From an uncultured virus (IMG/VR IMGVR_UViG_2061766007_000739) (lineage: Duplodnaviria; Heunggongvirae; Uroviricota; Caudoviricetes): a DNA stretch of 64,000 nucleotides. The translations under genes were made by a program, and so were the position numbers. Position 1 is the first letter of the stretch. The number at the start of each line of letters is the position of its first letter. Under the pieces are notes generated by a model that worked only from the letters and a program-made list of their open reading frames with translations, was not told the DNA's origin and did no database searches. The DNA lies in the IMG/VR virus record IMGVR_UViG_2061766007_000739, one strand, 5' to 3'. Below are positions 1 to 59,700 of this stretch, in pieces.

Positions 1-4
1 TACT

Positions 5-304
5 TTGGCCGAGATGGTGGAGAAGTACAATGACATGGGCCGACTGGCGGTTAGCCTGGATTGGCAATGCACTCCAAGGACTTCATTACACATGGACACC
101 ACTATATACGATGTGGACCGTACTGGCAAAATGACCTTTGAAAAGGTGATGAAGGCTATTGAGGAAGAAGACAGCGCAGAATACTGCGTCACTTTCATTG
201 ATGAAATTTTGTTGCAACTGCCTGATTTGTCGCAGTTGCAGATAGATGAGATTATGGGATTGCGGAAGCATTATGAGGAGTTAGCCAATGCAGTTCAGCC
301 GTGA
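5..304 (+). CDS. Partial ORF, probably the C-terminal part of the glycosyltransferase at 2352-3053 (variant copy, inverted by scaffolding)
   Basis: A near-identical reverse-complement copy at about 1696-1962 lies downstream of the GT gene on the minus strand. GT end NRVRQAC plus VRRMSDEDLKLYV...LAEMVEKY reads as one plausible protein. Confidence 0.5.
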   Translation: MAEMVEKYNDMGRLAVSLDWQCTPRTSLHMDTTIYDVDRTGKMTFEKVMKAIEEEDSAEYCVTFIDEILLQLPDLSQLQIDEIMGLRKHYEELANAVQP

Positions 305-3149: not shown

Positions 3150-5521
3150 ATGCCATTCAACGGGATACATAATCTAAGGTCTGCAAGCGAGTCTGTGAAG
3201 CTCGAAATGTGGCAGCTGCAAGAAATCGAGCGCTGCACTAAGGACCCTATTTACTTCATCCGCCACTACGTCTACATCAACACAAAGGACGAGGGCACCC
3301 AGCTGATGAAGACGTACCCGTTCCAGGACGAGGCAATTCGGCGTTTTCTCAAATACAGGTTCAACATCAACCGATGGTCCCGACAGGTGGGTAAATCCAC
3401 TATTGTCCGCGCCTTTATCCTTTGGTACGCAATGTTCCACGAAGACCAGCTCATAGCAATGCTGGCAAACAAGCTCATGCTTGCCAAGGAACAGTTGCAG
3501 CTCCTGAGAGAATCCTACCTGAACCTCCCCTACTGGCTACAGCCCGGCGTAAAACTGTGGAACAAGATGTCCATCCAGTTCGCCAACGGCTGGCNNNNNN
3601 NNNNTTGGTACCGGAAGCTGCTAAGACACCGAACCGTGGTTCGCTTACTACCGAAGACATTCGCCTGATTGCTCATTCCGGGATTCCTGGAATAACGATG
3701 GAAACTGATGTAGACGGTAATGACAACGACCGTATTATCATAGGCGACGGCCGGTCCATGAGTATTGACAGCCCGGTTGCTAAGATGCAGATGAGTGTCT
3801 TGGTTAACAAGGCTGAAGATAAGATTGGTAGATCAGTCTTTGATGAAAACGGTGGTTTAACCGAAGAGGGTATTGCTGCACTGGGTGAAGTTGCCCAAGG
3901 CAATACAGCCCCGATTGACCCGATTGTTCCAACTGAACGTATCGTACCGGCTGTGGTTCGTCTGGTGAAGGATTCGATGGATTCCGGCACTGGTCGTAAA
4001 TGGGCGACGAGCGACGATGATGGTAACTTTACCCATGCATTCACCGATGGTGATAAGAACCAGTTTGTCGTAACCTTCGGTATTTCGAAGATTTCCAGTA
4101 TCGTCAACAGCTTGTTCGGAGGAAAGTTCACTGATGGNNNNNNNNNNTCTCCCCGAATCTACTGTACCTTGACGAATTTGCGTTCTTGCGTCCGGGCATG
4201 GCCGATGAATTCATGGCTTCCGTGTTCCCGACTATCTCATCAGGTAAGAAGACACGAGTCATCATTACGTCAACGCCGGCGGGTATGAACCACTTCTATA
4301 GAATGTGGGAAGATGCAGTCGATGAATCTACGGCAACCGCACACGAATTGCAGGCGAAGTACGTCAGGTCCACAGTGCTCTGGAAGGAAGTGCCCGGTCG
4401 TGACGAACAGTGGGGCATTGACGAAAAACTCCGCTGTGGCGAAGAAAGATTCCGCCAGGAATACGAATGCGAATTCATCGGTTCCGCAGTCACTCTTATC
4501 GACTACCACACCTTGCAGCATCTGCATCCGGACAAGCCGATGGCCCATCCGAGAATCCCGGACGAATACCAGCTCCGCGTTTATCGGCGACCGCTCAATC
4601 CACAACAGATGGAATTCGACAAGTCAGTCTACATTGCTGCGCTGGATACCGGCTACGGTATGCGTCAGGACTACCACGTCCTCCAAATCCTCTATGCAAA
4701 GACCAGCACCAAGCTGGAGCAGGTGCTCACGCTGTCCTCGAACAGCGTGACTGTGGAAGACTTCTGTGCNNNNNNNNNNCAAGACCAGCACCAAGCTGGA
4801 ACAGGTGCTCACGCTGTCCTCGAACAGCGTGACTGTGGAAGACTTCTGTGCAGTGTCATTTGCCCTGCTCAGAAAATACAATTTCCCTGCACTTACAATC
4901 GAATATAATGGCGGATCCGGCTCGCTTGCCTACCAGACNNNNNNNNNNCGCCCTGCTCCGGAAATACAATTTCCCCGCACTTACAATCGAATATAATGGC
5001 GGATCCGGCTCGCTTGCCTACCAGACAATGACTGCCGCAATGCAGTACCCGAATATCGTTGACTACGATAGCTACTTCCGTGGTATGTACTCCACTGCTA
5101 CTACCAAGAACCAGGCCGTCATGTTGCTGAAGACTTACATCCAGAAGAACTACCTCATTCTCCATGACGAGAAGACAATCAACGAGCTCATGTCGTTCAC
5201 GCGACCCACCAAGAGCACCTGGGGTGCTTCCGGCGGTAACCATGACGACCACGTTACGAGCTTGTACTGGGCCGTCTACCACGCCTACTCGCCGTACTTC
5301 CAGGGTGAAATGGAAGAAATCTCTTGGGACGACGTAATCAGGGCGGTGTTCGCACCGGCTGCTCAGATTGCCGACATGCGCAACGCGGCAGAGCAGGTCC
5401 ACAACCCGCAAATTTCGCAGGAACAGCGCGGCATGATGGAACTTGCCGGCAACCAGCGCATGTTGCCGCCTGTACAGCGCCCGTCGCAGCAGCAACAGCC
5501 GGTTCAGGCCACTGTCTATTC
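3150..5521 (+). CDS. gp17: Terminase large subunit (T4 gp17-like), in pieces 3150-3594, 4148-4769 and 4949-5521 because of gaps and misplaced contigs
   Basis: EIERCTKDPIYFIRHY, YPFQ (Q motif), WSRQVGKST (Walker A), LYLDEFAF (Walker B), IITSTPAG, FRQEYECEF, nuclease ALDTGYG and NHDDHV. Confidence 0.93.
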
Positions 5522-6011
5522 NNNNNNNNNNNNNNNNNNNNNNNNNNNNNNNNNNNNNNNNNNNNNNNNNNNNNNNNNNNNNNNNNNNNNNNNNNNNNNN
5601 NNNNNNNNNNNNNNNNNNNNNNNNNNNNNNNNNNNNNNNNNNNNNNNNNNNNNNNNNNNNNNNNNNNNNNNNNNNNNNNNNNNNNNNNNNNNNNNNNNNN
5701 NNNNNNNNNNNNNNNNNNNNNNNNNNNNNNNNNNNNNNNNNNNNNNNNNNNNNNNNNNNNNNNNNNNNNNNNNNNNNNNNNNNNNNNNNNNNNNNNNNNN
5801 NNNNNNNNNNNNNNNNNNNNNNNNNNNNNNNNNNNNNNNNNNNNNNNNNNNNNNNNNNNNNNNNNNNNNNNNNNNNNNNNNNNNNNNNNNNNNNNNNNNN
5901 NNNNNNNNNNNNNNNNNNNNNNNNNNNNNNNNNNNNNNNNNNNNNNNNNNNNNNNNNNNNNNNNNNNNNNNNNNNNNNNNNNNNNNNNNNNNNNNNNNNN
6001 NNNNNNNNNNA

Positions 6012-6674
6012 CTAAAGGAAGGCGTGCAGACATTCGTAGACTCGACAGAAAACGAGGAAACTCCGGTCCAGGAAAGCATGGGTCTCAAGCTGTCCCTCGA
6101 CGAATGCGTTGAACGCGGCATGGGCCGCAACTTCATGCGCATGTACCAGCTCGAATGCGCTGGCCAGTGCTGCCCACAGCAGGGCGGTTTCCATCTTGGT
6201 GACGTGGTTCACTGTGGAAACACCCCGGCACTGTTTGTCGTAAAGAAAGCTGACGGCCAGATGGTTACTGCTGCAAAACCGACTTCCAATCCGAATGAAC
6301 TTCTTACCTCCTGTGACGGCGAATGGCCTACTTTCACCTTCCGTGCAACCGACATCCAGCCAATGCTCAACGCATCCATTGACGATGTTCAAAATATTGT
6401 CGGCTTCAATGACCAGGCAATGCCATTTGACGGTAGCACCATTGATGACAACCCGATGAAGGTTGCCCAGAATGATGCCAAGTGCAACATGCTCGACCGG
6501 ATTTCGGACAACCTTGATGAAATTCTCGGCATGCCGTATCAGGACATCTGTTCCGGCAAGGATCCAAGCTGCAATGTAATGACCCAGCCTACCGAAGTGG
6601 TCATCATCAACCCGGATGGCTCGTTCGGCACAGCTCCACAAATGGGCGGCTACAAAGTAAAGATAGGTGACTAA
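6012..6674 (+). CDS. Hypothetical protein, 5' end in gap; probable virion or head protein
   Basis: Open frame with phage-like codon usage; contains QES/LDE-type motifs like other putative head proteins. Confidence 0.55.
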   Translation, partial: LKEGVQTFVDSTENEETPVQESMGLKLSLDECVERGMGRNFMRMYQLECAGQCCPQQGGFHLGDVVHCGNTPALFVVKKADGQMVTAAKPTSNPNELLTSCDGEWPTFTFRATDIQPMLNASIDDVQNIVGFNDQAMPFDGSTIDDNPMKVAQNDAKCNMLDRISDNLDEILGMPYQDICSGKDPSCNVMTQPTEVVIINPDGSFGTAPQMGGYKVKIGD

Positions 6675-7894: not shown

Positions 7895-8201
7895 TTACTG
7901 CTCTATGCTGTCAATGAATACACGGGCACGATTGGTCAAGTGGCCATCATCATCCATAAGGTGAATGACATCTTTCTTCATGAAGTTGTGNNNNNNNNNN
8001 TGCGAGCGTAAATATAATCGCGTCCGCCCGGGCATCGGTCAAATCGGCACCACTCATATTGGAAAGAACCTGATTCAGTTCCGGCTTGCACTCGGCATTG
8101 AACCGAGTGTATTGCCGGGATGAACCCGGAGTACTTTCAGCATCATCGATGGTCTCGACATGGATACGGTCATCAGTCAATACAAGGTCAAACTTTACCA
8201 T
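7895..8201 (-). CDS. Small hypothetical protein (about 100 aa, gap inside)
   Basis: Starts 4 nt after the Hsp20 stop; after the 10-N gap the frame continues HNFMKKDVIHL...SIEQ* to 7895. Confidence 0.5.
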
Positions 8202-8204
8202 ACT

Positions 8205-9170
8205 TTACCCCAATCCAATTGAAATTCCAGTGTCCACACCAGCCACCTTCATCTCGATATGAAGGATGCCATCGGCCAGGTTTGCCTTGAACGAATCCTG
8301 GGAAGTGTCTACAGGCTTCGGGAAGTAGAACGGGAAGCTGAAATCCCCGAGCAAGTGGCGCCCGACACCGATAAGCGCCTCGTACTGCGGCTTCTTGCCC
8401 TTGTTTCCCTTGCCCTTTCCCTTCGGACGGTACTTCTCGCACATGAGTTCACGGTGCCCGCTGACATACAGGCTTCCACCGGAGAAGTTCATTTTAAGTT
8501 CACCCTTCTTCACACCCGGAAGGTCGATGTACAAGTGATACACGCCGTTCACCTCAATCATCTCGTATGCCGGGAAGTTCGGGGCGATTGCGATGCGTTC
8601 ACCCTGCACCAGCTTGATTTCATCATCGCCCTGCGGCTGTGGTTGCTGCTGGGGCATCGGCTGCTGGTAATACTGTGGCTGTTGATAATATTGTGGCTGC
8701 TGGTAATACTGCTGTTGTGGATATACTGGTTGCTGATACATAGGCTGCTGATACACCGGTTGCTGGTAGACGGGTTGCGGTTGCGGCTGCGGCTGTGGGG
8801 CTGGCNNNNNNNNNNNNNNNNNNNNNNNNNNNNNNNNNNNNNNNNNNNNNTGCTGGACAGGCTGCTGCACCGGTTGCTGCACGGGGCGCTGCATCGGCCT
8901 TTGCGCCGGCCTGCGTTGCCTAACGACCTGCCCGGGGACAATCATTGACGCATTCGCCCTGGCGACCCTTTCCAGGTCCGCCCTTGCGCTAGTGGAAGCG
9001 TGGCCAACCATGCGACCGCTATTCGCATCGTACACGGCATCCGACAAGTTGGGCTCGTCACTATAAATAAGGGTAGGACCGTCATCTACATTATACATAC
9101 TGCGCTCCTCGGAGCCGTCATCGTCCGGCTTCGACTTGAAAAAGTTGACAATTTTGGACCAGATGCCCAC
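8205..9170 (-). CDS. Hsp20/alpha-crystallin small heat-shock protein with long Gln/Pro/Tyr-rich N-terminal region
   Basis: YHLYIDLPGVKKGELKM...LYVSGHRE...FSFPFYFPKPVD...KANLADGILHIEM alpha-crystallin motifs; GGAGG RBS. Confidence 0.85.
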   Translation of the reverse strand: MGIWSKIVNFFKSKPDDDGSEERSMYNVDDGPTLIYSDEPNLSDAVYDANSGRMVGHASTSARADLERVARANASMIVPGQVVRQRRPAQRPMQRPVQQPVQQPVQXXXXXXXXXXXXXXXXPAPQPQPQPQPVYQQPVYQQPMYQQPVYPQQQYYQQPQYYQQPQYYQQPMPQQQPQPQGDDEIKLVQGERIAIAPNFPAYEMIEVNGVYHLYIDLPGVKKGELKMNFSGGSLYVSGHRELMCEKYRPKGKGKGNKGKKPQYEALIGVGRHLLGDFSFPFYFPKPVDTSQDSFKANLADGILHIEMKVAGVDTGISIGLG

Positions 9171-9266
9171 ATTAAGTGAACCTCCATATTTTTACATTAT
9201 CAAAACTATATTAAAATTTATATCTTGCAATTTCCAAGAAAAAATACTAAATATATAAGCTGTAGA

Positions 9267-9358
9267 ACGAAGGCAACTGGTCCTTGCCATCGTGGATATG
9301 TTTAAAAATGTGCCAAGGCACATTTAATCCTATCGGAAGGACCAGTTCCGATAGGATT
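9267..9358 (+). promoter_or_regulatory. Structured 5' leader of tnpB: three hairpins with a loop-loop (kissing) pairing
   Basis: Hairpins at 9267-9293, 9306-9325 and 9326-9358; loops CTGGTCC and GGACCAG are exact reverse complements. Confidence 0.75.
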
Positions 9359-9365
9359 TCTATAT

Positions 9366-10508
9366 ATGAAGAAGTCATTCGAAATACGACTATATCCAAA
9401 CCGAGATCAACAGGTATTTTTCAACCGGACATTCGGTTGTTGTCGTTTCGTATATAACCACTGCCTTTGGATGAAATCCAGTATATATGAAGAAACCTAC
9501 ATGAATTTCACTCCGAACCTTCGCTCATTTAAGGAGGAATGGCCATGGTTAAAAGAAGCTGACTCGCAGGGTCTCGCCAATGCCTATATGGATATGAAAA
9601 GAGCATATCAAAGCTTCTTCAATGGAAAGACCGGCTACCCACAATATAAGAAGAAATCTGGCCGGCAATCATACCGGAATGCAATGATGCATTCCGATAT
9701 CAACAGACTGATAGTCGGAAACAAAATACTTATTCCAAAGGCGGGACCAGTCAATTTCCGGCAAGGATATGACTTTCATAACCTGAATATCATCAAAGTA
9801 TGGAACATCACCATAAAGCGAACACCAACGAATAAGTATTTCTGTTCAATATGTTGCGAAGTGAATGAACCTAAACCTCTGCCACACACAGTCAACGATA
9901 TTGCTTTCGACCTAGGAATAAAGGACTTCCTGATTGATTCCGATGGATGTGTAATCACAAATCCAAGGTATTTTAAAACATCACAATCCAAGCTTGAAAA
10001 AGAACAAAGAAAATTAAGCCATTGCATCAAAGGTTCCCGCAACTACAGGAAACAACAGTTAAAGATAGCCAAGGTGCATGAAAAAATTACAAATCAGCGT
10101 AACGACTTCCAACACAAGGTATCATGGAAACTAGTTGCAGAAAACCAATGCATCTATTCAGAAGACCTTAAAGTGAAGAACTTGTTGCAAAACCACAATC
10201 TGGCAAAATCCATAGCGGATGTGGCTTGGAGTTCATTCCTAGCTAAGGTGGAATACAAAGCCGCTTGGTACGGAAGAACCTACATCAAAATCAGCACCTT
10301 CTTCCCATCAACAAAACTATGCCATAAATGCCATTACAAAAACGACGAGCTCACGCTTGAAGATCGCAAGTGGACTTGTCCGAATTGTGGTGAACCACTG
10401 GATAGGGACAAAAACTCGGCAATAAATATACTCAGAGAAGGACGCCGAATCCACATTTCAAGTACCCCAGGAACTGAGGGAGACCGTAAATTCGGTCAAG
10501 CCTGTTGA
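9366..10508 (+). CDS. tnpB: RNA-guided endonuclease TnpB
   Basis: IRLYPN...TFGCCRFVYN helix-turn-helix start; RuvC I AFDLGIKD, RuvC II SEDLKV, Zn finger CHKC/CPNC and RuvC III DRDKNSAINI all intact. Confidence 0.95.
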   Translation: MKKSFEIRLYPNRDQQVFFNRTFGCCRFVYNHCLWMKSSIYEETYMNFTPNLRSFKEEWPWLKEADSQGLANAYMDMKRAYQSFFNGKTGYPQYKKKSGRQSYRNAMMHSDINRLIVGNKILIPKAGPVNFRQGYDFHNLNIIKVWNITIKRTPTNKYFCSICCEVNEPKPLPHTVNDIAFDLGIKDFLIDSDGCVITNPRYFKTSQSKLEKEQRKLSHCIKGSRNYRKQQLKIAKVHEKITNQRNDFQHKVSWKLVAENQCIYSEDLKVKNLLQNHNLAKSIADVAWSSFLAKVEYKAAWYGRTYIKISTFFPSTKLCHKCHYKNDELTLEDRKWTCPNCGEPLDRDKNSAINILREGRRIHISSTPGTEGDRKFGQAC

Positions 10509-10588
10509 TACTGACAGCAATAGCTGCCTTGAGCAGGAAGTTACACCGTCACCGGTTGTGCAGTTCATTCCATATAGCAGTCGCGTAG
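10461..10588 (+). ncRNA. Putative TnpB omega-RNA (reRNA) scaffold plus guide
   Basis: AGTACCCCAGGAACTGAGGG...AAGCCTG...GAGCAGGAAG...GCAGTTCA layout overlapping the tnpB 3' end, typical of IS605-type right ends; guide is the flanking DNA from about 10569. Confidence 0.65.
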
Positions 10589-11377
10589 GACATTGAGGCG
10601 CTTGCTGTCTCTCAGCTTCTCTATTGCCTGGTTTTTGATCTTGCGAATCCAGTCCTTGCTCATGCCGGTATTCGCCGCCTCTTCCTCAAAACTACTCCCA
10701 TCTCCGTCAAGGCCGTACAGGGAACGCAACAATTTGTTCTCTATCGGTGTAAGGACGCGATTCATTTCGGCAACAAGGCCATCTCGCATGTCTTCCATGA
10801 TAGCGTTCTTTTCCGGATTGACATCAGTAGATTCATCGGGTATGACATCGTGCAACAGGAACGTGGAATTTTCACCATCCTCGCCCACTGGCATGTCGAG
10901 TGAATCCGGGCCCAGGATGGCATTCATGGCTTCCGTCCCGTAATTCATGTCCATCGGGAGGCCGTCTCGTATAGCCTTCAATACGCGCTTGCGCTGCCGC
11001 ACGGGGACATGGACCAAATCGCGTCCCTGGACAACCATAGACATATGGCGCCTGACTTCCCAGATGGCAAATGAGCCGAATTTTACGCCTTTACGATAAT
11101 CGTATTTGTAAAACGACTCCATGAGTCCCAGTTTGCCCTCGGTATAAAAGTCGGTAATGGGCAATCCGGTGACGTTGTGATAGTCCATTGCAAGCTTCAG
11201 CACCAGCCTGAGGTTCGATTTGATGATTTTGAGCTTGGCAGCTTCCCTCACTCCCTCATTCTTGCTCGTATGATAGGTCTGAAAACAGGCGTTTTCCGCC
11301 CGTTGGCCTATAATTTCATAACCGGCAACCTCGGCGAAGAGCTCTTGCACTCCTGGTTCAATTGAAATTGCGGGCAA
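10565..11377 (-). CDS. Sigma70-family RNA polymerase sigma factor (regions 2-4)
   Basis: SNLRLVLKLA, EGKLGLMES.YKYD..KGVKFGSFAIWEVR, VHVP, SLDMPVGED and region 4 HTH GMSKDWIRKIKNQAIEKLR; TTG start. Confidence 0.88.
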   Translation of the reverse strand: MPAISIEPGVQELFAEVAGYEIIGQRAENACFQTYHTSKNEGVREAAKLKIIKSNLRLVLKLAMDYHNVTGLPITDFYTEGKLGLMESFYKYDYRKGVKFGSFAIWEVRRHMSMVVQGRDLVHVPVRQRKRVLKAIRDGLPMDMNYGTEAMNAILGPDSLDMPVGEDGENSTFLLHDVIPDESTDVNPEKNAIMEDMRDGLVAEMNRVLTPIENKLLRSLYGLDGDGSSFEEEAANTGMSKDWIRKIKNQAIEKLRDSKRLNVLRDCYME

Positions 11378-11406
11378 AACACACCCCTTTGTATATTGTT
11401 AACCTT

Positions 11407-11435
11407 AATATAACAACTTATCAACACTCTGTCAA
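11407..11435 (-). promoter_or_regulatory. Host sigma70-type promoter of the phage sigma gene
   Basis: TTGACA-N17-TATATT on the minus strand, about 30 nt upstream of the start. Confidence 0.7.
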
Positions 11436-11530
11436 CACTTAATTGACGAAAATGTAAGAAAAGTTTATACAATCGCAAGCTAAAAAACCGTGGCCAACCG
11501 CTAAAGCTTTGGAAAATAGGAGATTTTCCA

Positions 11531-12394
11531 ATGAAAAGACTAGCAATCAGCGTTTCCGGTGGCGGTGCCCTCGGTATCGGCCCACTCGCATTCATGACCA
11601 GGATGGAACAAGATTTCGGTAAGAAGCTCTGCGACATGAGTTTTGCCTACGGAGGCACCTCTACAGGCTCGATTATCGCAGCAGGCCTCGCACAAGGCCT
11701 GTCGGCGCACGAAATCTTCGACCTGTACAAGGGAAACTTGAAGAATATCTTCAAAAAGTACCCTGCATATAAGGTTTTTGACATCAAATGCCCGACATAC
11801 AACAATTCCAAGCTCAAGACGATCCTTCAAAAGACCTTTCCGGGCAAGATAGGCGACTGGAAAAAGTCCGTGTACATCCCGGCTACCTTCATGAACGGCA
11901 AGAGCGTCGAAAAGGTCTGGGACCTTGGGGATAAGGATACCGAAAAGTGGTTCGCGGTACTCACAAGCTGCTCCGCACCGACCTATTTTGACGTGATTGT
12001 GCAGGATGGCAAGAGCTACTGTGATGGTGGCATGTGGGCCAATGACCCTATTGAAACCCTCGAATCCGGCTTGACCAAGGCAGGACATAGAGATTTCAAG
12101 ATTCTGTCGTTCAATACCGGCATGGACACCCCGCACACAGCCTGTGGCAACATGTCCAAGCTCGGATGGCTTGAATACATCCTGGACGAATGGGTTGCAA
12201 GAAGCGGCATGGCCAATTACTATGAAGCATGCGCCCATCTTGGCGAGGAAAACGTGTTCCGTGCATCCCCATCCCATAACAAGAAGATTAAGATGGACAA
12301 GACGGACGACAAGACCGTCAACGAGGTCATCGATATCTGGCAGAAATATTATGAGAGTGTCAAGGGCAAGCTGAAAAAGTTCATAGAGCGCTAA
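11531..12394 (+). CDS. Patatin-like phospholipase
   Basis: SGGGALG oxyanion motif, GTSTG nucleophile, SAPTYF and DGG catalytic Asp. Confidence 0.9.
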   Translation: MKRLAISVSGGGALGIGPLAFMTRMEQDFGKKLCDMSFAYGGTSTGSIIAAGLAQGLSAHEIFDLYKGNLKNIFKKYPAYKVFDIKCPTYNNSKLKTILQKTFPGKIGDWKKSVYIPATFMNGKSVEKVWDLGDKDTEKWFAVLTSCSAPTYFDVIVQDGKSYCDGGMWANDPIETLESGLTKAGHRDFKILSFNTGMDTPHTACGNMSKLGWLEYILDEWVARSGMANYYEACAHLGEENVFRASPSHNKKIKMDKTDDKTVNEVIDIWQKYYESVKGKLKKFIER

Positions 12395-12744: not shown

Positions 12745-14025
12745 TTACCAGCTCTGGCATTCCAGATACATTATACCTGTTTCCTCATCAGTAATATTAT
12801 TGAACCATTTACTTTGAAGCGTACCGCTGTCGTAGCGAACCGCGTTAAGGTTTGTACAATACCAATCACCGTTTCCGTCTTTAACCGCCTGATATTCGGT
12901 TATCCACAACGGATATCCGTCACCCCAAGGGTCATTGGAAACTTCCTTACCCAGTTCAAAACTATCACCACGGTTGTACCAATACGCATAAAGCTTTGGG
13001 TCGATGGGTTTGAACTGGATAGATTCACCGGGGCCAGAATTCTCGGCATAATCTTGTTTATCACATAAGATATTACGTGGAACAGTCTGACCATTGAGTT
13101 TAAGATACTTTATCTGTATAATCATCTTGTGGTGCGTTCCAGCAATCGGGAGCCAACCGCGTTCTGTACCAAGATATTCATACATAGTCTTTGAAGCAGG
13201 ACAATACGCATGCTGACCAAGAAAAGCACCGGGACTAATAGGGCTCTTGTATCCAGTCCCATATACAACACATGCATCAGACGGATTGATATAACTAACT
13301 GTCCCACCAGCTGTTATCTTATAATGAGAACCCGGTTTGATAGGAACCGATTCTCCCGAGAAACTAATCTCGGAAATAGACGTTAAATGTGTATGGTTAC
13401 CGCTTGCAAATTCACCTGCAGCAGTGCCAAATGCACCCGTAGTAATTAGGCCATCAGTCGTTGTCACCAAAGGTAGACCCGATGCGTTACCAATTTTACC
13501 ATCAGTACTAATATTACCATGTGTATGGTTACCGCTCGCAAATTCACCTGCACCGGTACCAAATGCGCCTGTAGTAACTAGACCATCGGTCGTTGTCAGC
13601 AAAGGAAGACCTGATGCACTGCCAATTTTGCCATCAGTACTAATATTACCATGTGTATGGTTACCGCTTGCAAATTGACCTGCAGAAGTTCCAAATGCAC
13701 CCGTAGTAATGAGACCACCGGTCGTTGTCACCAAAGGAAGCCCTGATGTGCTACCAATTTTACCATCATTAGTAATATTGCCGTGTGTATGTGCAGGCAA
13801 ATCAGGCAAACAAATGGAAGGAATCTTACCTTCCGTATCTAGCGGAGCAATACCACAAGTTTTCTTTCCATATGCATCGGTCGTAGTAGCCTTACCAATG
13901 ACACCTCCATTTTCAAGATCATCATCCAAGCCAATATTATGACGAGCCATCCAAAGCCAGCCATTCTCGGCAACATTAGCAGCCCGTTGGTCTACGTTAT
14001 AGAGAACCTTATTAATCTTGCTCAT
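12745..14025 (-). CDS. Putative tail fibre or spike protein with HxH repeats
   Basis: Three 44-aa Gly/Thr-rich repeats delimited by HTH (His-x-His) motifs typical of trimeric metal-binding fibres. Confidence 0.65.
   Translation of the reverse strand: MSKINKVLYNVDQRAANVAENGWLWMARHNIGLDDDLENGGVIGKATTTDAYGKKTCGIAPLDTEGKIPSICLPDLPAHTHGNITNDGKIGSTSGLPLVTTTGGLITTGAFGTSAGQFASGNHTHGNISTDGKIGSASGLPLLTTTDGLVTTGAFGTGAGEFASGNHTHGNISTDGKIGNASGLPLVTTTDGLITTGAFGTAAGEFASGNHTHLTSISEISFSGESVPIKPGSHYKITAGGTVSYINPSDACVVYGTGYKSPISPGAFLGQHAYCPASKTMYEYLGTERGWLPIAGTHHKMIIQIKYLKLNGQTVPRNILCDKQDYAENSGPGESIQFKPIDPKLYAYWYNRGDSFELGKEVSNDPWGDGYPLWITEYQAVKDGNGDWYCTNLNAVRYDSGTLQSKWFNNITDEETGIMYLECQSW
13387..13791 (-). repeat. 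Three tandem 132-bp coding repeats
   Basis: ATGTGTATGGTTACCGC recurs at 13387, 13519 and 13651, with a partial copy at 13783. Confidence 0.9.
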
Positions 14026-29539: not shown

Positions 29540-32462
29540 CTAAACGAATGCACGAACCTTCTTGGTTTCGTCGTATTCGAGTTCCTTCGGCCACCCGACA
29601 GCTTCGAAAAGACGGCCAAGTATCTGAGCAACAGAGACATGCCACTGTTCTTCCCAGTCGGCATGGAACAGTTGCAGAAGGCGTTCCGGGCACTTCTCAC
29701 CACTATAACAGATAATCGATACGCCATAGCGCTCATCAGCCTTCTTGATGAACTTCATCTTGTCACCGGCATAGATAGGCTCGTACGGTTCCTGTGCAAG
29801 AACCGGGTCATTTTCAATGAGGTAGTTCCACACGGAAGCGGCCCTACGACGCCAGTCAATATCGGAAATATCGGACTTAGGCATAGTAATCATCTTCAAG
29901 TAAGGAATCGGTTCTTCTTTCATACCCGATGGACATGCTATGTAAGAGTAATTCTTATCCCTTACTGCATCAAAGAATTCTTTTTTCATGATAAGAAGCC
30001 TACGCCGCACTTCATCCCTATCCATAGTCTTCAACATAAGCTTAACCATATCAAGCATACGTTCCCTACTGAACAGTGTGGTTGAACTACGCACGATTTC
30101 AAGACCGGTAATAGCAAAATGTGGTTCAAGTTCGAGTGTACCCGGAGCCCAATTACCATCATCACCCTTATGCCCAAGGTCAAGATAAACGATATCCTCG
30201 TTGGATTCAGCTTCGCAGATGTACTTTTTCTTTGCAGTGACGATTGCCTTATAAATACACTTTTCTCGCTTTAAGAACAGTTCGTTAGTTAGGAAGTTCC
30301 ATTTCTTCGCGTAGGCAAGCATGAACTCGTCAAGCTTCTCTTCGAGCATGGCCGCATCCATAATGCGGCAGAAGTCCGTAAGGCGGAAACGGTTGTAAAT
30401 GACACGGTAGCGCTTTCCCATGACAATACCGTCATGGAACATAATCTGCACCTTTGTCAGCCCGGTCTTCTTGTCAACGGAACGGTTCTCCGGGTCATGC
30501 CACACATCATGCAGGTACTGGTTACACGCCGCATTGAACATCTTCTTGGATTCGAGAATGTGGTCATTGTCGAAGCCCTGCCGGAAGATTTCCTTATGTT
30601 CATCGAACACGATGACTTCCACGCCGGTACCGGCCTTGACACCGAATTCCTTGAAGATATCACCAATCTTGCAGTAGAAGGAGTCAGTATCACCATGGGA
30701 CATGCGACGATAGAGCACCTGTCCATCCTCCTTGTCCTTGATAGTACCGAGGAACGACGGGTCAATCGTCGGTTTGTATCCGAATGCATCATAGAAGCGC
30801 TTATCATTAACCAGTTCCTCATTGAGGTACTTGGCAAGTTCGGCAATAGTAAACTTAATGAGCCTCTGGCCGTAACCGGTAATGGAGGCAGCATTATCGA
30901 CATCATAGAACGGGAAGAAATTAGAACCGAGAAGACCATACAGAGAGTTACCGAGGACCTTATAGACCTTCTGCATCATGTCGTATATGTCCTTCATTTC
31001 CATATCGCCAGCCTTTTCGGCGGCCTTCTTCTTGTTCTTCAACTTGGCACGACCATCAAACAGCTTCCTGGTCACCTGCGGGACGATGCCTTCCTTGTCA
31101 CGACGGAAATACACCTTGTATTGGCCGTTGTGGGTCCACGGGCTCTCGATGAGAAGATCCTTCTCTTCCGGGGTAAGAACGTAGTCAATGGGCTTGATGA
31201 CCTTCGTCTCCGGAGAGGTATTGAAAGTCATCATGATAGACGGGTATAGTGAACGGTAGTCATAGGAAACCAAGAACTCATAGTAGCCGGGGATCGAGTA
31301 CACGAATGCACCCGGATATTCTTCCTTGTTCTTGGCCTGCATCGGGGGGAACACGAGATGCTGTTCGTGAAGCATGTTCATCACAAACCCGACCAGCATC
31401 TTCTTGGATTCAAACACGGAAGAGAACGGAACGCGGGCTTCCGAAGCAGCCATGACGGCAAGCTGGAACATGCGTACCTTCAATTCAATCTTTTTCAGCA
31501 GCCTAACGTCCTGGAAGTTATACAGGATGAACTCATCCCAGTAGTTCTTCCATGACTTGTAGCCATCAGGCAGCGGTGCCTTGTGTTCACCGACAACAAG
31601 TCCGCCAATGTAGTCGAGTTTGTAGGACGGCTCTTCCGAGAATGTGTACTTGCGGTAGAGTGCAAGGAAGTCGATAACTTCCGTACCGGCAATCTGCAGG
31701 TTGCCCTCGCGGTCAAAGTAGGCNNNNNNNNNNGGGAAGCCTGGACATGAGCTTCAAGTCCACCTTCAACTTGGCGGCACGGTTGACCATGTAGGTGGTA
31801 TCGTACGAGAAGTTCCACCCCGACAGGATATCAACCTGGTTTCGTCCAATCTCGGAGAACAGTTTTTCGAGGAGTTCCTTCTCGGTGTAGCAGAGAACGT
31901 ATCTCCCGTTCTCTTTCGCCATCTCTTCCTTGACATAATCGGAAACGTCGCGACCGAGCCCATAAGTCACATAATTGTCGGTCTTCGAGAAGTAAACGGT
32001 AACACAGTTAATCGGGTACTCAGCACGGTGGGCCGCGGGGAAGCGACCCACCGTCTCCACTTCAATATCGAGGAAGCACAGGTTGATCTTCTTCATATCC
32101 GGCTTCAGCATGCCGGATTTAGAATAATGCTTCGCTAAAAATCTAGCCCTGGGGTCAATATCGATTTCACATAGCTGGTTGTTTGGGCCGCGCCGGTTAT
32201 TGTATATTTCCCTTTCCAGCTTAGACTTACATGTAACCGAGTACATCTCCCTGCCAAAGATGTCCTTCATCCCACAAGGTATCGAGTTAAACTCTCCCCG
32301 ATTAGGCGTATAGAATGTATTGGTAATGACCTTGGTTTCCAGTTTCCCGGTGTCGTACCATAGGAACAACTGGTCGGTATCCACATCATGGTATATCGCG
32401 GTCCACATCGGGTGGACATCTTGTGAGTCTACTACCTTGTTATCTTCTAACGCTAAAGCCAT
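29540..32462 (-). CDS. gp43: Family B DNA polymerase (T4 gp43-like), split only by the 10-N gap at 31724-31733
   Basis: Exo I LDIEVE, Exo II SGWNFSYD, motif A DYRSLYPSIM, motif B KVLGNSLYG, motif C HGDTDS, KKKY and GLEIVRSST. Confidence 0.95.
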
Positions 32463-56784: not shown

Positions 56785-59700
56785 TTATACAGTTTCTTCC
56801 TTATCGGCAGGGTGCGGAGCTACCGGAGATACCTGCGGTGCGGGAGCCGGCGCCGTCTGTGGCTTTTTGATGGCACTAGGCTTCTTCGACGTGGGTGCCG
56901 GAGCTTCCGGAGCTGGGGCGGAAATCGGTTTCTTTCCAACCGGACCACGGCGTCTTACCGGTGGGGGAGGCGTATTGTCAGCCGGCGGGTTCAACCACTT
57001 TACAGTAACACCATATTCACTGTGTACGGTATCGCCATCAGCAACCATCTTCTTAGCAACATTCGCAGCCACCTTCGATATATCGGACTTCACTTTACCC
57101 TCAATCATAATGATAGCGTTTTCCGGAATTGCCTTCTTCTTATGGCTAAGATATTCCATAATTTCACGCTTAAATTCGGCCTGAGATCCATCAGTGAACT
57201 TTCCTCCGAACAAGCTGTTGACGATACTGGAAATCTTAGACACACCGAAGGTTACGGCAAACTGGTTCTTAGCGCCATCGGTGAATGCATGGGTAAAGTT
57301 ACCATCATCGTCACTCGTCGCCCATTTACGACCAGTGCCGGAATCCATCGAATCCTTCACCAGNNNNNNNNNNNNNNNNNNNNNNNNNNNNNNNNNNNNN
57401 NNNNNNNNNNNNNNNNNNNNNNNNNNNNNNNNNNNNNNNNNNNNNNNNNNNNNNNNNNNNNNNNNNNNNNNNNNNNNNNNNNNNNNNNNNNNNNNNNNNN
57501 NNNNNNNNNNNNNNNNNNNNNNNNNNNNNNNNNNNNNNNNNNNNNNNNNNNNNNNNNNNNNNNNNNNNNNNNNNNNNNNNNNNNNNNNNNNNNNNNNNNN
57601 NNNNNNNNNNNNNNNNNNNNNNNNNNNNNNNNNNNNNNNTCTTCTCGTTGAAAGCATACTTTTCGGCCAAGGTTTTCTGAGACTCCATGCCATCCTGCAC
57701 TTCCTTACAGAAATCACGCACACTACCTTCAAATCCAGTGCCCGTCTTCAACATTTCAAATGTATCGTTCATCTGAGCGATATCACGACGGGTCATAGCT
57801 GACCTAGATGGAACAGGATACTGTTCCAACACCTTACGAACGGTGTTTTTAATGCTGTCAAATGATTTGGTGTTAGCTTGAGTAACATAGCTAGTACCGA
57901 AATTGCCACCAACCGCCCTGGTACGAGCGTTAGCGGCATTGATGGAACCAGTTACATTTCCACTAATACCATTGAGTTCCTGCTCAAACTCACGCAATGC
58001 ACTTCTCTGGTGACGACGAGCAGCGGCCCCACGAGCCGGAGTACCGGTCTGTTGAGACTGCTTTGCCGCATAATCAATCAACCGAGAATACCAACCACCG
58101 CCACCAGATGTACGAAGTTTAGACATCAAATCCTTGATAGATTCAAGATCATATGAAGTGTCACCCTTCGACTCCAGTGAAAGACGGCAAATTTCCACGA
58201 ACTTAGCATATTCAGCACCTTCAACATCCTTGATGTAGGCNNNNNNNNNNGCCACCACCAGATGTACGAAGTTTAGACATCAAATCCTTGATAGATTCAA
58301 GGTCATATGAAGTGTCACCCTTCGACTCCAGTGAAAGCCGGCAGATTTCCACGAACTTAGCATATTCAGCACCTTCAACATCCTTGATGTAGGCAAGCTT
58401 CGGGCCAACAGTCTTTGCAATCTGAGCCAGGTTTGCTGCATTAGCTGTGCGAATACCGTTTGTGTTGAGCCAATCAGCGATGCCAGTAGGTGTTTGCATG
58501 GATGAATCGTTGCCCAAGTCGGAAATGAACTTAGCAGTCTTAGTACCAAGAATCATGGAAGCGTTTTTACGACCAACCAACACTGTATGCAATGCAGCAG
58601 AAAGTTGTGCATCTGCTTTGGCGATAGCGCTATCTATCTTGGTACCACGATCAAGCACACCCCTCGGGTCGGTGCCAAATAAGGTAATGATTTTGTCGCA
58701 AAGAAGGTTGCTTATTTCGTTCCGCTCACCAACACTGGGCGAATTCATAGCCTGACCCGCAGCCTCAGAATTTAGCGCAGCCTTGACGAAGTTAACAGCA
58801 TCTTCACCTGCCATTTCCTGCAATTTATCAAATGCAGCGTTACGAGACGCAATGCGAGCATCATTATTCTTGCCGGTTGGATTAATAATACCATCGACCA
58901 CACCCTTAAGTGCAGACTTGTCGGCAATCTCACGATTAGGATATTCACCGGTGAGCGCCTTAGTGAATTCATCCGAGTCATAAGCGGCACCAACCGTTTC
59001 ATCCGCATTGATTTCGTTACGGATGTTTTCAGTAAATGCAGCATGCGCAGCATTTCGCTCAGCCGGGTCCAGAGCAGCACAGATTGCAGCAGTCTTACCG
59101 CCATCAAGGTTACCCGCAAGGTCGAAGAATGTGTCAGCCACCTTCTTCATCAATTCCGGTTCATTTTTACGCATGACATCAAACGAACGGTTGCTGAGTA
59201 AGCTATCGGTAATCTGATAACGAACTGCGCGAATGAATGCATCAGTTACCTGCGGTTTTTGAATCAAGTTGATTGCACGATTGGCAAATGCAGCAGATTT
59301 ACCACCGAATGCCATATCAGCATAGCTAGTGCCCGCATTGGAACCAGTCTTAATCAAATCGGTGAGAGCAAGCTTTTCAAAAACTTCACCGAAGTTCTGA
59401 CCGAGCTCGATAATAGCCGCTTTCACTGACTTGTACTCGCGGTCATTAGCCGCTTCCGAAGTAATAATCTTTTCGCCGATTGCAGCTGCATCATTGTTCG
59501 GCATGAGGCCTACATTGATTTCGGTATCAAGACGGTGCAACTTGTTATCAACATCATGCGCAGTCCGGACAAAATAATCCAAGGTGCGGCGAGCACCGGC
59601 ATTGACGCCCATATCAAAATCCTGATACAGGCTCTCCAACGAATGCGCAAGATTCTTGTCAGTTACACTATCACGAGCATTATTCAGTATGTAATGTGCG

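What the first reader, a model, noticed from the sequence alone, without database searches (positions are those of the whole stretch)
9267..9365. Three-hairpin kissing-loop RNA in the tnpB leader that buries the putative RBS
Seen: P1 is ACGA-A-GGCAA-[CTGGTCC]-TTGCC-A-TCGT (9267-9293), P2 is AAATGTGCC-AA-GGCACATTT (9306-9325), and P3 is a perfect 13-bp stem AATCCTATCGGAA-[GGACCAG]-TTCCGATAGGATT (9326-9358). The P1 and P3 loops are exact 7-nt complements, extendable to 11 bp (9275-9285 with 9337-9347). The only SD-like sequence (AGGA, 9353-9356, 9 nt before ATG) lies in the 3' strand of P3. A TTGCAA-N17-TAAATA promoter-like element (9225-9253) sits just upstream. Known: T4 homing endonuclease genes are repressed by RBS-sequestering hairpins. 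Inference: a cis-regulatory pseudoknot controlling nuclease translation or attenuation, more elaborate than the usual single IS605 left-end hairpin.
Basis: partly seen in the sequence, partly recalled or inferred. Interest (0 to 1): 0.75.

Follow-up and report, generated by a model that had tools for sequence, protein, structure and literature searches.

The report
Kissing-loop leader RNA before phage tnpB
The 100 bases in front of this rumen phage's tnpB nuclease gene fold into a conserved, uncatalogued leader RNA whose first and third hairpin tips always pair with each other, and whose third hairpin buries the ribosome-binding site, so it most likely keeps the nuclease scarce.

Summary
P1, P2 and P3 lie where stated, and this is the only hairpin pair with complementary loops in the window (0 in 20 shuffles).

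Eighteen of 18 related leaders examined keep the P1/P3 loop pairing, through six different loop sequences. This holds even though the scans left the loops free. All three stems show compensatory changes, and G·U pairs fit the + strand, so the fold is an RNA fold.

P1-P3 are not the transposase hairpins. In relatives that role falls to a separate left-end hairpin (P0) that matches the right-end hairpin. The window copy has lost both but keeps the leader.

The same leader precedes two TnpB lineages, a NUMOD3/I-TevI-type endonuclease gene and two unknown genes.

Best reading: a portable 5' leader that throttles selfish nuclease genes. P3 hides the SD and is terminator-like in relatives, and the loop pairing locks or switches it. 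The regulation itself is inferred, not shown.

Rfam has no match, and four literature searches found no description. Earlier notes of this scan already describe such leaders on other phage DNA.

The parts
9178..10568 (+). Inserted tnpB-only element (IS200/IS605 type), immobilised or remodelled. Contigs of related phages join 9177 to 10567 with one T between. By alignment the right end is ...GTTCAT at 10568.
   Evidence: read laying joint 9177->10567 in contigs of runs X15 and X17. Right-end alignment. Sequence.
9225..9261 (+). Promoter-like region: TTGCAA (9225-9230), N17, TAAATA (9248-9253), overlapping TATAAGCT (9254-9261). The predicted start lies between about 9259 and 9268, upstream of the P1 inner stem.
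   Evidence: Sequence. TTG and TATAA are invariant in 14 aligned leaders while the spacer varies. TATAAAC is the only upstream motif shared with L160 and L185. Not scored by the consensus scan. The start site is not mapped.
9267..9293 (+). P1 hairpin. Inner stem GGCAA/TTGCC (9272-9276 with 9284-9288). Loop CTGGTCC (9277-9283). The outer stem ACGA/TCGT is poorly conserved.
9306..9325 (+). P2 spacer hairpin, 8 bp with a CAAG loop.
   Evidence: In 6 of 7 pairs some sequence has a change on both sides, and G·U pairs occur on the + strand.
9326..9358 (+). P3 hairpin, 13 bp, loop GGACCAG (9339-9345). Its 3' arm holds the SD-like AGGA (9353-9356).
9277..9345 (+). Loop-loop (kissing) pairing, 9277-9283 with 9339-9345. 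It can extend to 11 bp (9275-9285 with 9337-9347) if the two apical A-U pairs of each stem melt.
   Evidence: duplex -11.3 and -16.4 kcal/mol; 100% paired, 3 covarying pairs.
9366..10508 (+). tnpB, 380 aa. In the printed alignment to ISDra2 TnpB, acidic residues stand in the motifs that I recall as the RuvC catalytic positions.
10349..10591 (+). The 3' end of tnpB, the right-end remnant and 23 nt of flank. This is the expected place of the omega-RNA scaffold and guide. The right-end hairpin is missing here (about a 30-nt gap against relatives, near 10556-10560).
   Evidence: Right-end alignment. A 243-nt contig of RNA-library run X16 covers exactly 10349-10591. That is a weak hint only.

Best explanation
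P1-P2-P3 is a structured 5' leader RNA of the + strand. It is transcribed from the element's own promoter and travels as a portable cassette in front of selfish nuclease genes of T4-like rumen jumbo phages.

Its third hairpin (P3) hides the SD-like AGGA 9 nt before the tnpB start codon. In most relatives P3 is followed by 5-7 U, so it also looks like an intrinsic terminator. Either way, little TnpB is made.

The 7-nt loops of P1 and P3 pair with each other. This kissing contact locks the closed fold, or sets how easily it opens.

Shown: the fold, its conservation, the covariation of all four helices including the loop-loop helix, strand polarity, and independence from the transposase hairpins.

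Inferred: that it is transcribed from just upstream of P1, that it lowers expression, and whether translation, termination or both are affected.
For: 1. Conservation ahead of unrelated cargo. Leader homologues were found in viral and metagenome contigs. They stand directly before a 422-aa TnpB that is 50-52% identical to the window's over the best segment. One stands before an unknown ORF (L144) and one before a NUMOD3/I-TevI zinc-finger protein (L160). Covariance-model hits add L171 (160-aa unknown ORF) and L185 (the L144-type ORF).

2. Covariation. On 17 rows (16 distinct), 95% of 575 cells are paired. Thirteen pairs have changes on both sides, against 2.9 +/- 1.2 in shuffles (0 of 500 reach it). 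Slid controls give 1-4 such pairs. The loop-loop helix is paired in 112 of 112 cells, with 3 covarying pairs.

3. Six loop versions. CTGGTCC/GGACCAG, CTGGTAC/GTACCAG, CTGGAAC/GTTCCAG, CTCGCAC/GTGCGAG, CTAGCCC/GGGCTAG and TGGACGAGA/TCTCGTCCA. The scans left the loops as N, and the covariance model does not score loop-loop pairing.

4. RNA of the + strand. There are 13 G·U cells in 6 pairs, against 5 A·C cells, all in the outermost P1 pair. GCAA and TTCG tetraloops occur in P2 variants.

5. Not the transposase sites. Relatives have a separate subterminal hairpin P0 (CTCACCCA-TCTTTAG-TGGGTGAG). It matches the right-end hairpin (CCCACCGG-TCTTTAG-CCGGTGGG). The window copy lacks both yet keeps P1-P3 at 74-84% identity to the TnpB-element leaders.

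6. SD burial and terminator likeness. SD unpaired probability is 0.004 and P3 is -18.2 kcal/mol. P3 in L134 scores as terminator-like. Of the 16 other aligned leaders, 15 show at least five T right after TAGGA or TAGGT, and L142 is cut after four.

7. No third partner. No other conserved site for either loop was found inside 9 full or near-full elements.

8. Precedents. T-even homing endonuclease genes (PMC2988022, passages read) and the IS200 tnpA leader (PMC4513863, passages read) use SD-sequestering leader hairpins.
Against: - No transcription start, 3' end or expression datum covers the leader.
- In L171 the gene has its own AAGGAG SD downstream of P3 and a U-rich run. SD burial is therefore not universal, and attenuation or another role may be the common denominator.
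- In the window the tail after P3 is UUUCUAUAU and is not scored as a terminator.
- The window's promoter hexamers fail the sigma-70 scan, and L134's do too.
- The same covariation fits an alternative 11-bp long-range helix instead of a kissing contact. By nearest-neighbour energies that state is only 2.7-7.4 kcal/mol above the three-hairpin state in 14 of 16 sequences, and it is lower in 2.
- SD-like motifs precede only part of this phage's genes in a crude look.
- The sequence set is small and related. A tree of the flanking coding sequence was unresolved, so the number of independent compensatory events is uncertain, and recombination could move both loops together.
Confidence: 0.6

Rival explanations
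1. Bistable switch. The complementarity between the P1 and P3 loop regions serves an alternative long-range helix of 11-13 bp that encloses P2. This helix melts the tops of P1 and P3 and frees the 3' arm of P3, so the SD is exposed and no terminator forms (ON). The three-hairpin state is OFF. A signal such as temperature, a protein, a trans RNA or folding kinetics would choose between them.
For: - AA...UU flanks on both loops are invariant in 16 of 16 aligned leaders and are kept in the divergent L185, giving 11-13 contiguous complementary bases.
- The minimum-free-energy fold of L185 and L159 is this long-range helix.
- The energy gap between the two states is small, -2.7 to +7.4 kcal/mol.
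Against: - The three-hairpin state is lower in 14 of 16 sequences even without any kissing bonus.
- The stems of P1 and P3 themselves show compensatory changes, so the hairpins form.
- L171 has only 7 complementary bases, with G-C pairs flanking its P3 loop.
- No ligand or factor is known.
Confidence: 0.2
2. Stand-alone small RNA. Promoter, three hairpins and the P3 terminator make a roughly 100-nt sRNA that acts in trans. It might pair through its loops with sister copies or other targets. The downstream gene would be expressed only by read-through.
For: - The anatomy is that of an sRNA gene in relatives. L171 has TTGACA-N17-TATATT, then the leader, then a U-rich tail before a separate SD.
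- P3 scores as terminator-like.
- The IS200 tnpA 5'UTR is processed into regulatory RNAs (PMC5435999, abstract only).
- In the two phage records that hold two copies, the loop pairs differ between the copies.
Against: - In all 18 leaders whose downstream sequence is held (L142 is cut), the leader lies just ahead of a start codon.
- No third conserved partner site for the loops was found in the elements.
- The loops are complementary to each other within one molecule.
- No RNA-end data are available.
Confidence: 0.1
3. DNA-level element. The hairpins form in single-stranded DNA as transposase (TnpA) recognition or synapsis sites of the IS200/IS605 left end. Alternatively, the two 11-bp inverted half-sites are a protein operator in duplex DNA.
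For: - IS200/IS605 elements transpose as single strands and use subterminal hairpins (recalled knowledge).
- The hairpins also fold with DNA parameters: -6.4, -6.1 and -11.6 kcal/mol.
Against: - The hairpin that matches the right end is P0, not P1-P3.
- The window copy lost P0 and the right-end hairpin but keeps P1-P3.
- The leader also precedes a NUMOD3 endonuclease gene with no IS ends.
- G·U pairs outnumber A·C pairs 13 to 5 on the + strand.
- An operator model does not explain the local stems or their compensatory changes.
Confidence: 0.05

Closest known systems
RBS-sequestering leader hairpins of T-even phage homing endonuclease genes (I-TevI, I-TevII, I-TevIII, segB, Aeh1 mobE); PMC2988022, passages read
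   Same: A stable RNA hairpin just before a selfish nuclease gene of a T4-like phage buries the SD about 8-9 nt before the AUG. The presumed purpose is to keep the nuclease low. One copy of this leader (L160) precedes a gene with NUMOD3 and I-TevI-type zinc-finger motifs.
   Different: In T4, a late promoter placed inside the structure gives late transcripts that lack the inhibitory arm. Here the conserved promoter motifs lie upstream of P1, so every transcript should carry the whole leader. T4 uses single hairpins. This leader has three, with a covarying loop-loop contact. There is no sequence similarity.
IS200 left end and tnpA 5'UTR (PMC4513863, passages read)
   Same: An element of the same superfamily. 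The left end carries a subterminal hairpin that is also terminator-like, as P0 is in relatives. Next comes a weak promoter, then a 5'UTR stem-loop that sequesters the SD. In IS200, repression by the antisense RNA art200 depends on pairing between terminal loops.
   Different: IS200 regulates tnpA, and this leader regulates tnpB and other nucleases. In IS200 the loop pairing is with a separate antisense RNA, whereas here the partner loop (P1) is built into the same leader. No sequence or Rfam similarity was found.
Kissing complexes of antisense control systems (ColE1 RNA I/RNA II, R1 CopA/CopT); recalled knowledge
   Same: Seven-nucleotide hairpin loops are fully complementary. Single-base changes in both loops give new matched pairs.
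   Different: Those complexes form between two molecules and control plasmid replication. Here both loops sit 62 nt apart in one leader.
Intrinsic-terminator attenuators in leaders
   Same: P3 in relatives is a 12-bp stem with 6 G-C pairs followed by 5-7 U, directly before the gene.
   Different: There is no leader peptide and no known ligand or protein. The candidate competing helix overlaps only the loop and two apical pairs of the terminator. The window copy has an interrupted U run.

Membership tests
T-even homing-endonuclease RBS-sequestering leader hairpins | A stable hairpin contains the SD just upstream of the nuclease start codon | tested here: met
   AGGA 9353-9356 lies in the 3' arm of the 13-bp P3. 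Unpaired probability is 0.004 and P3 is -18.2 kcal/mol.
T-even homing-endonuclease RBS-sequestering leader hairpins | A late promoter lies inside or after the 5' arm, so that late transcripts lack the inhibitory structure | tested here: not met
   By inspection of the alignments, the conserved TTGAC and TATAA(A/G)C motifs lie upstream of P1. I saw no TATAAATA-like motif between P1 and the P3 3' arm. This is inspection only, with no start-site data.
IS200-type left-end regulatory architecture | A subterminal left-end hairpin (transposase site, terminator-like) is followed by an SD-sequestering 5'UTR stem-loop | tested here: inconclusive
   Relatives have P0 plus the leader. The window copy has the leader but no P0.
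IS200-type left-end regulatory architecture | A cis-encoded antisense sRNA (art200) lies opposite the 5'UTR | not testable with these tools
   No strand-specific RNA data cover the leader. The only Rfam match near it is a sub-threshold rliA hit on the - strand (22.6 bits against a gathering score of 50).
IS200/IS605 TnpA-recognised end hairpins | Similar imperfect hairpins lie near both the left and the right end | tested here: not met
   The right-end hairpin (loop TCTTTAG) matches P0, not P1-P3. P1-P3 also occur without IS ends in L160.
Intrinsic terminator | A G+C-rich stem is followed directly by a U run | tested here: inconclusive
   Scored in relative L134. Of the 16 other aligned leaders, 15 have at least 5 T after P3. 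The window's own tail TTTCTATA is not scored.
Any Rfam 15 family | A match at or near the gathering score | tested here: not met
   Window 8000-12000 searched at E up to 1 gave only chance-level hits. L134, L171, L185 and L160 at E up to 0.1 gave none.
Kissing-loop (loop-loop pseudoknot) RNA motifs | Complementary hairpin loops whose pairing is kept by compensatory change | tested here: met
   112 of 112 cells are paired and 3 of 7 pairs change on both sides. L171 and L185 also keep the pairing. The physical contact itself cannot be tested here.

The most novel reading that the evidence does not exclude
The leader is a new class of portable, bistable RNA lock for selfish nucleases. Its loop pair would act as a private key, differing between cassettes of one phage genome. 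Each nuclease gene could then be opened, cross-regulated or timed separately. The opening could come from a trans RNA, from a sister copy, or from a switch into the 11-13-bp long-range helix. The ~100-nt terminated leader might itself be a trans-acting phage sRNA.
Probability: 0.2. Interest if true: 0.8.

Novelty: new variant of a known kind. Interest (0 to 1): 0.65.

Why it matters
TnpB nucleases are the ancestors of Cas12 and are now genome-editing tools. I found no account of how their own expression is held in check at the 5' end.

This leader gives a concrete candidate control element backed by covariation. The same module is shared with a gene carrying homing-endonuclease motifs (NUMOD3, I-TevI-type zinc finger). 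That suggests phage selfish nucleases of unrelated families exchange a common regulatory cassette.

It is a ready candidate for a new RNA family. It is also a compact natural example of an intramolecular kissing loop whose specificity has been re-coded at least six times.

Tried and rejected
**Searches that gave nothing useful**
- Own-genome search: no genome is held for this window.
- blastn of the element against GenBank phages: no match.
- Other tnpB or leader copies in the window: none by repeats, and none by covariance model with filters off beyond the antisense self-hit. The remaining hits have E 0.08 or worse.
- The first loop-fixed pattern scan gave 39 loci. Only 8 were real leaders by BLAST, and the other 31 were taken as chance.

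**Leader before more distant TnpB genes**
- Model R1 over 94 sources hit only the window, L001, L002 and L003 on the + strand. There was also a weak L012 hit (E 0.004) that I did not examine.

**RNA evidence for the leader**
- The four RNA-library runs laid are assembled contigs, and none covers 9235-10306. This shows nothing either way.

**Ideas rejected**
- A coding uORF or N-terminal extension from the ATG inside P2. It is in frame with tnpB in 4 of 9 copies only.
- Pairing of the loops with the omega-RNA or 3' region. No conserved 6-7-mer partner was found in 9 elements.

**Left unresolved**
- A 5'-end to start-codon closing helix (ATACGAA with TTCGTAT) is present in one subgroup only.
- A tree to count independent covariation events was unresolved.
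- Identity of the L144/L185 cargo: no Pfam or PHROG family, no PDB sequence match, and BLASTP to the window TnpB is insignificant.

**Papers**
- Four literature searches that named TnpB or IS200 found no description of this leader. The terms were IS200 + stem-loop + Shine-Dalgarno + transposase, TnpB + UTR + hairpin + left end + promoter, TnpB + kissing, and TnpB + jumbo phage. A fifth search served only to find the T4 review.
- Supplements were not consulted.

Full report
**What is there**

- P1 is 9267-9293, with loop CTGGTCC.
- P2 is 9306-9325. Realistically it is 8 bp with a CAAG loop.
- P3 is 9326-9358, a perfect 13-bp stem with loop GGACCAG.
- AGGA at 9353-9356 lies 9 nt before the ATG at 9366.

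As RNA, the stretch 9255-9380 folds into just these three hairpins. The energy is -42.6 kcal/mol, z = -4.97, and 0 of 200 shuffles fold as well. A script found no other hairpin pair with complementary loops in the 64-kb window, and none in 20 shuffles.

The ORF 9366-10508 is a TnpB by Pfam. It matches ISDra2 TnpB with E 2e-81. In the printed alignment, acidic residues stand in the motifs that I recall as the RuvC catalytic positions. The residue numbering is from memory.

The window is a T4-like phage. It encodes a T4-type portal, a T4-type terminase domain, family B DNA polymerase, primase, a DnaB-like helicase, a UvsX-like recombinase, a baseplate wedge protein and a sigma factor. Related contigs are 198-355 kb long.

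**The element around it**

Contigs from two RNA-library runs join 9177 to 10567 with a single T between them. They are an allele without the insert. The tnpB unit is therefore an insertion of about 1.39 kb. It lies between the stop codon of the sigma-factor gene (10565-11377, - strand) and the start of an Hsp20-like gene (8205-9170, - strand).

Relatives of the leader sit in tnpB-only elements of about 1475 bp, found in different flanks. From left to right these elements have:
- a left end that begins after TTTAT,
- a subterminal hairpin P0 (CTCACCCA-TCTTTAG-TGGGTGAG),
- TTGAC-N17-TAnnnT overlapping an invariant TATAA(A/G)C,
- P1, P2 and P3,
- the ATG of tnpB.

Their right end carries CCCACCGG-TCTTTAG-CCGGTGGG and ends in GTAGTTCAT. 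P0 and the right-end hairpin share loop and shape. They are therefore the likely transposase sites. That is an inference from what is known of IS200/IS605 elements. P1-P3 are something else.

The window copy lacks P0, and about 30 nt covering the right-end hairpin are missing. It still keeps P1-P3 at 74-84% identity to the leaders of the TnpB elements and 65% to L160. Its TnpB is only 50-52% identical to theirs over the best segment.

The closest TnpB relative is the first gene of L001, at 82% identity. It shares the right end but has no such leader.

**Comparative evidence for the fold**

I ran pattern scans that fixed only stem bases and left both loops as N.
- 11 of 11 metagenome matches were leaders.
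- 8 of 8 viral matches were leaders.
- A scan on P3 alone gave 12 viral loci, all leaders, 4 of them new.

On the combined alignment (17 rows, 16 distinct):
- 95% of 575 cells form standard pairs.
- 13 of 36 pairs change on both sides, against 2.9 +/- 1.2 in shuffles (0 of 500 reach it). Slid controls give 1-4.
- The loop-loop helix is paired in 112 of 112 cells, with 3 of 7 pairs covarying.

A covariance model ignores loop-loop pairing. Run over ten viral records, it found two further divergent copies.
- L171 has a different P3 stem. Its 9-nt loop contains GTACCAG, opposite a P1 loop CTGGTAC.
- L185 was a weak hit (E 4e-4). Its 9-nt loops TGGACGAGA and TCTCGTCCA are fully complementary, with polarity swapped.

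In all, 18 of 18 leaders examined keep the pairing, through six loop versions.

G·U pairs (13 cells in 6 pairs) outnumber A·C cells (5, all in the outermost P1 pair). P2 variants carry GCAA and TTCG tetraloops. Both points indicate RNA of the + strand.

Limits of this evidence:
- The inner stems were fixed by the scans, so their invariance says nothing.
- The set is small and related.
- A tree of flanking coding sequence was unresolved, so the number of independent events is unknown. Both loops could also move together by recombination.

**A portable module**

The leader precedes several different genes:
- the 422-aa TnpB lineage,
- the window's 380-aa TnpB,
- an ORF of unknown family, in L144 behind the complete left end and in L185 behind a divergent leader. 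It has no Pfam or PHROG match, and tblastn finds relatives in Lak megaphages.
- a protein with NUMOD3 and I-TevI zinc-finger motifs in L160, with no IS end upstream,
- a 160-aa unknown ORF in L171.

Upstream, L160 and L185 share only TATAAAC with the IS copies. L171 has a near-consensus TTGACA-N17-TATATT. The leader is therefore used with at least two promoter types. In each reading the predicted start lies upstream of the P1 inner stem. No start site is mapped.

**How it most likely works**

P3 buries the SD-like AGGA. The unpaired probability is 0.004 and P3 is -18.2 kcal/mol.

In relatives P3 is followed by 5-7 T and scores as an intrinsic terminator. Of the 16 other aligned leaders, 15 have at least five T there. 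The window's tail, TTTCTATA, does not score.

I therefore read the leader as a throttle on nuclease expression, acting on translation, termination or both. The P1-P3 loop contact would lock the closed fold.

This parallels two known systems:
- The IS200 left end has an end hairpin and terminator, a weak promoter and an SD-sequestering 5'UTR stem-loop. Its antisense RNA acts through terminal-loop pairing (PMC4513863, passages read).
- T-even homing endonuclease genes have leader hairpins that bury the RBS (PMC2988022, passages read).

Unlike T4, I saw no late promoter inside the structure.

Two results cut against a purely translational lock:
- L171 has its own AAGGAG SD after P3 and a U-rich run.
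- The same complementarity can form an 11-13-bp long-range helix that would open P3. That state is only 2.7-7.4 kcal/mol above the three-hairpin state in 14 of 16 sequences. It is lower in L159 and L160, and it is the predicted minimum for L185 and L159.

Covariation cannot tell a kiss from this helix, so a bistable switch remains a serious rival. A stand-alone ~100-nt sRNA is a weaker one. A DNA-level role is unlikely, for the reasons given above.

**Novelty**

Rfam 15 has no match. Four literature searches that named TnpB or IS200 found no description of such a leader.

Earlier AI notes of this scan already describe kissing-loop leaders before phage tnpB and homing endonuclease genes on other DNA. 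I used them as leads only. My own scans confirm that the leader precedes non-TnpB genes.

The kind of element, an SD-hiding or attenuating leader on a selfish nuclease gene, is known. The three-hairpin form with a re-coded loop-loop pair is a new variant.

Noticed in passing
window 9177/10567: Contigs of runs X15 and X17 join 9177 to 10567 with one T between. They are an allele of a related phage without the tnpB insert. The right end of the insert supplies the TGA stop of the sigma-factor gene (10565-10567, - strand). In the empty allele the same frame ends in TAA. The empty allele reads ...GTTAT|TCCATATAG.... This looks like a TTTAT-type target motif next to the sequence that follows the right end, as expected for a TnpB guide target.
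   Followed up: partly
window 9178-9224: The leftmost 47 nt of the insert are AT-rich, unrelated to the left end of the relatives, and lack hairpin P0. On the - strand they supply a GGAGG about 8 nt before the GTG start of the Hsp20-like gene (8205-9170). The empty allele has only a weak SD-like sequence there.
   Followed up: partly
window 10349-10591: A 243-nt contig of RNA-library run X16 covers only the 3' end of tnpB, the right-end remnant and 23 nt of flank, which is where an omega-RNA with its guide would lie. Contig ends are not RNA ends, so this is a weak hint. The right-end hairpin is missing in the window (about a 30-nt gap against relatives near 10556-10560).
   Followed up: partly
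L001 1498-2724 and 3982-4076: One 253-kb phage contig holds two tnpB genes 1.3 kb apart. The first is 82% identical to the window's TnpB and has the same right-end sequence but no kissing-loop leader. The second is a 422-aa TnpB with the leader.
   Followed up: partly
L144 595-1083; L185 about 1-200 (- strand); L153 1801-3123: An ORF family (MIKTIVLDIV...) stands behind the leader in two contigs. It has no Pfam, PHROG or PDB sequence match, and has relatives in Lak megaphages and Campylobacter phages. The 440-aa relative has GIDLN and NPAYSS motifs that remind me of the RuvC motifs of TnpB-like proteins. That is recalled, not tested.
   Followed up: partly
L134-type leaders (for example L136, L150, L159): In one subgroup the 5' end of the leader (ATACGAA) is complementary to TTCGTAT, which spans the end of the U run and the GUAUG start region. 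This is absent or broken in other subgroups.
   Followed up: partly
window about 464-1538, with 276-463 / 1537-1724 and 6-177 / 1736-1907: A run of 1075 N (masked) is flanked by two pairs of long inverted repeats, 188 nt at 97% and 172 nt at 95%.
   Followed up: no
window 29540-31483 and 31713-32462; 3422-6674: The family B DNA polymerase is split into separate polymerase and exonuclease ORFs with a 230-nt gap. A Terminase_6N fragment (4186-4908) lies among overlapping ORFs with direct repeats of 71-77 nt at 4699-5026. These may be introns, inteins or mobile inserts.
   Followed up: no
window 3962-4137 and 57188-57363; 13387-13791; 58098-58394: A 176-nt inverted repeat (96%) lies 53 kb apart. 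Three tandem 141-nt copies (period 132) lie inside ORF 12745-14025. Two 143-nt direct repeats lie inside the 1814-aa ORF.
   Followed up: no
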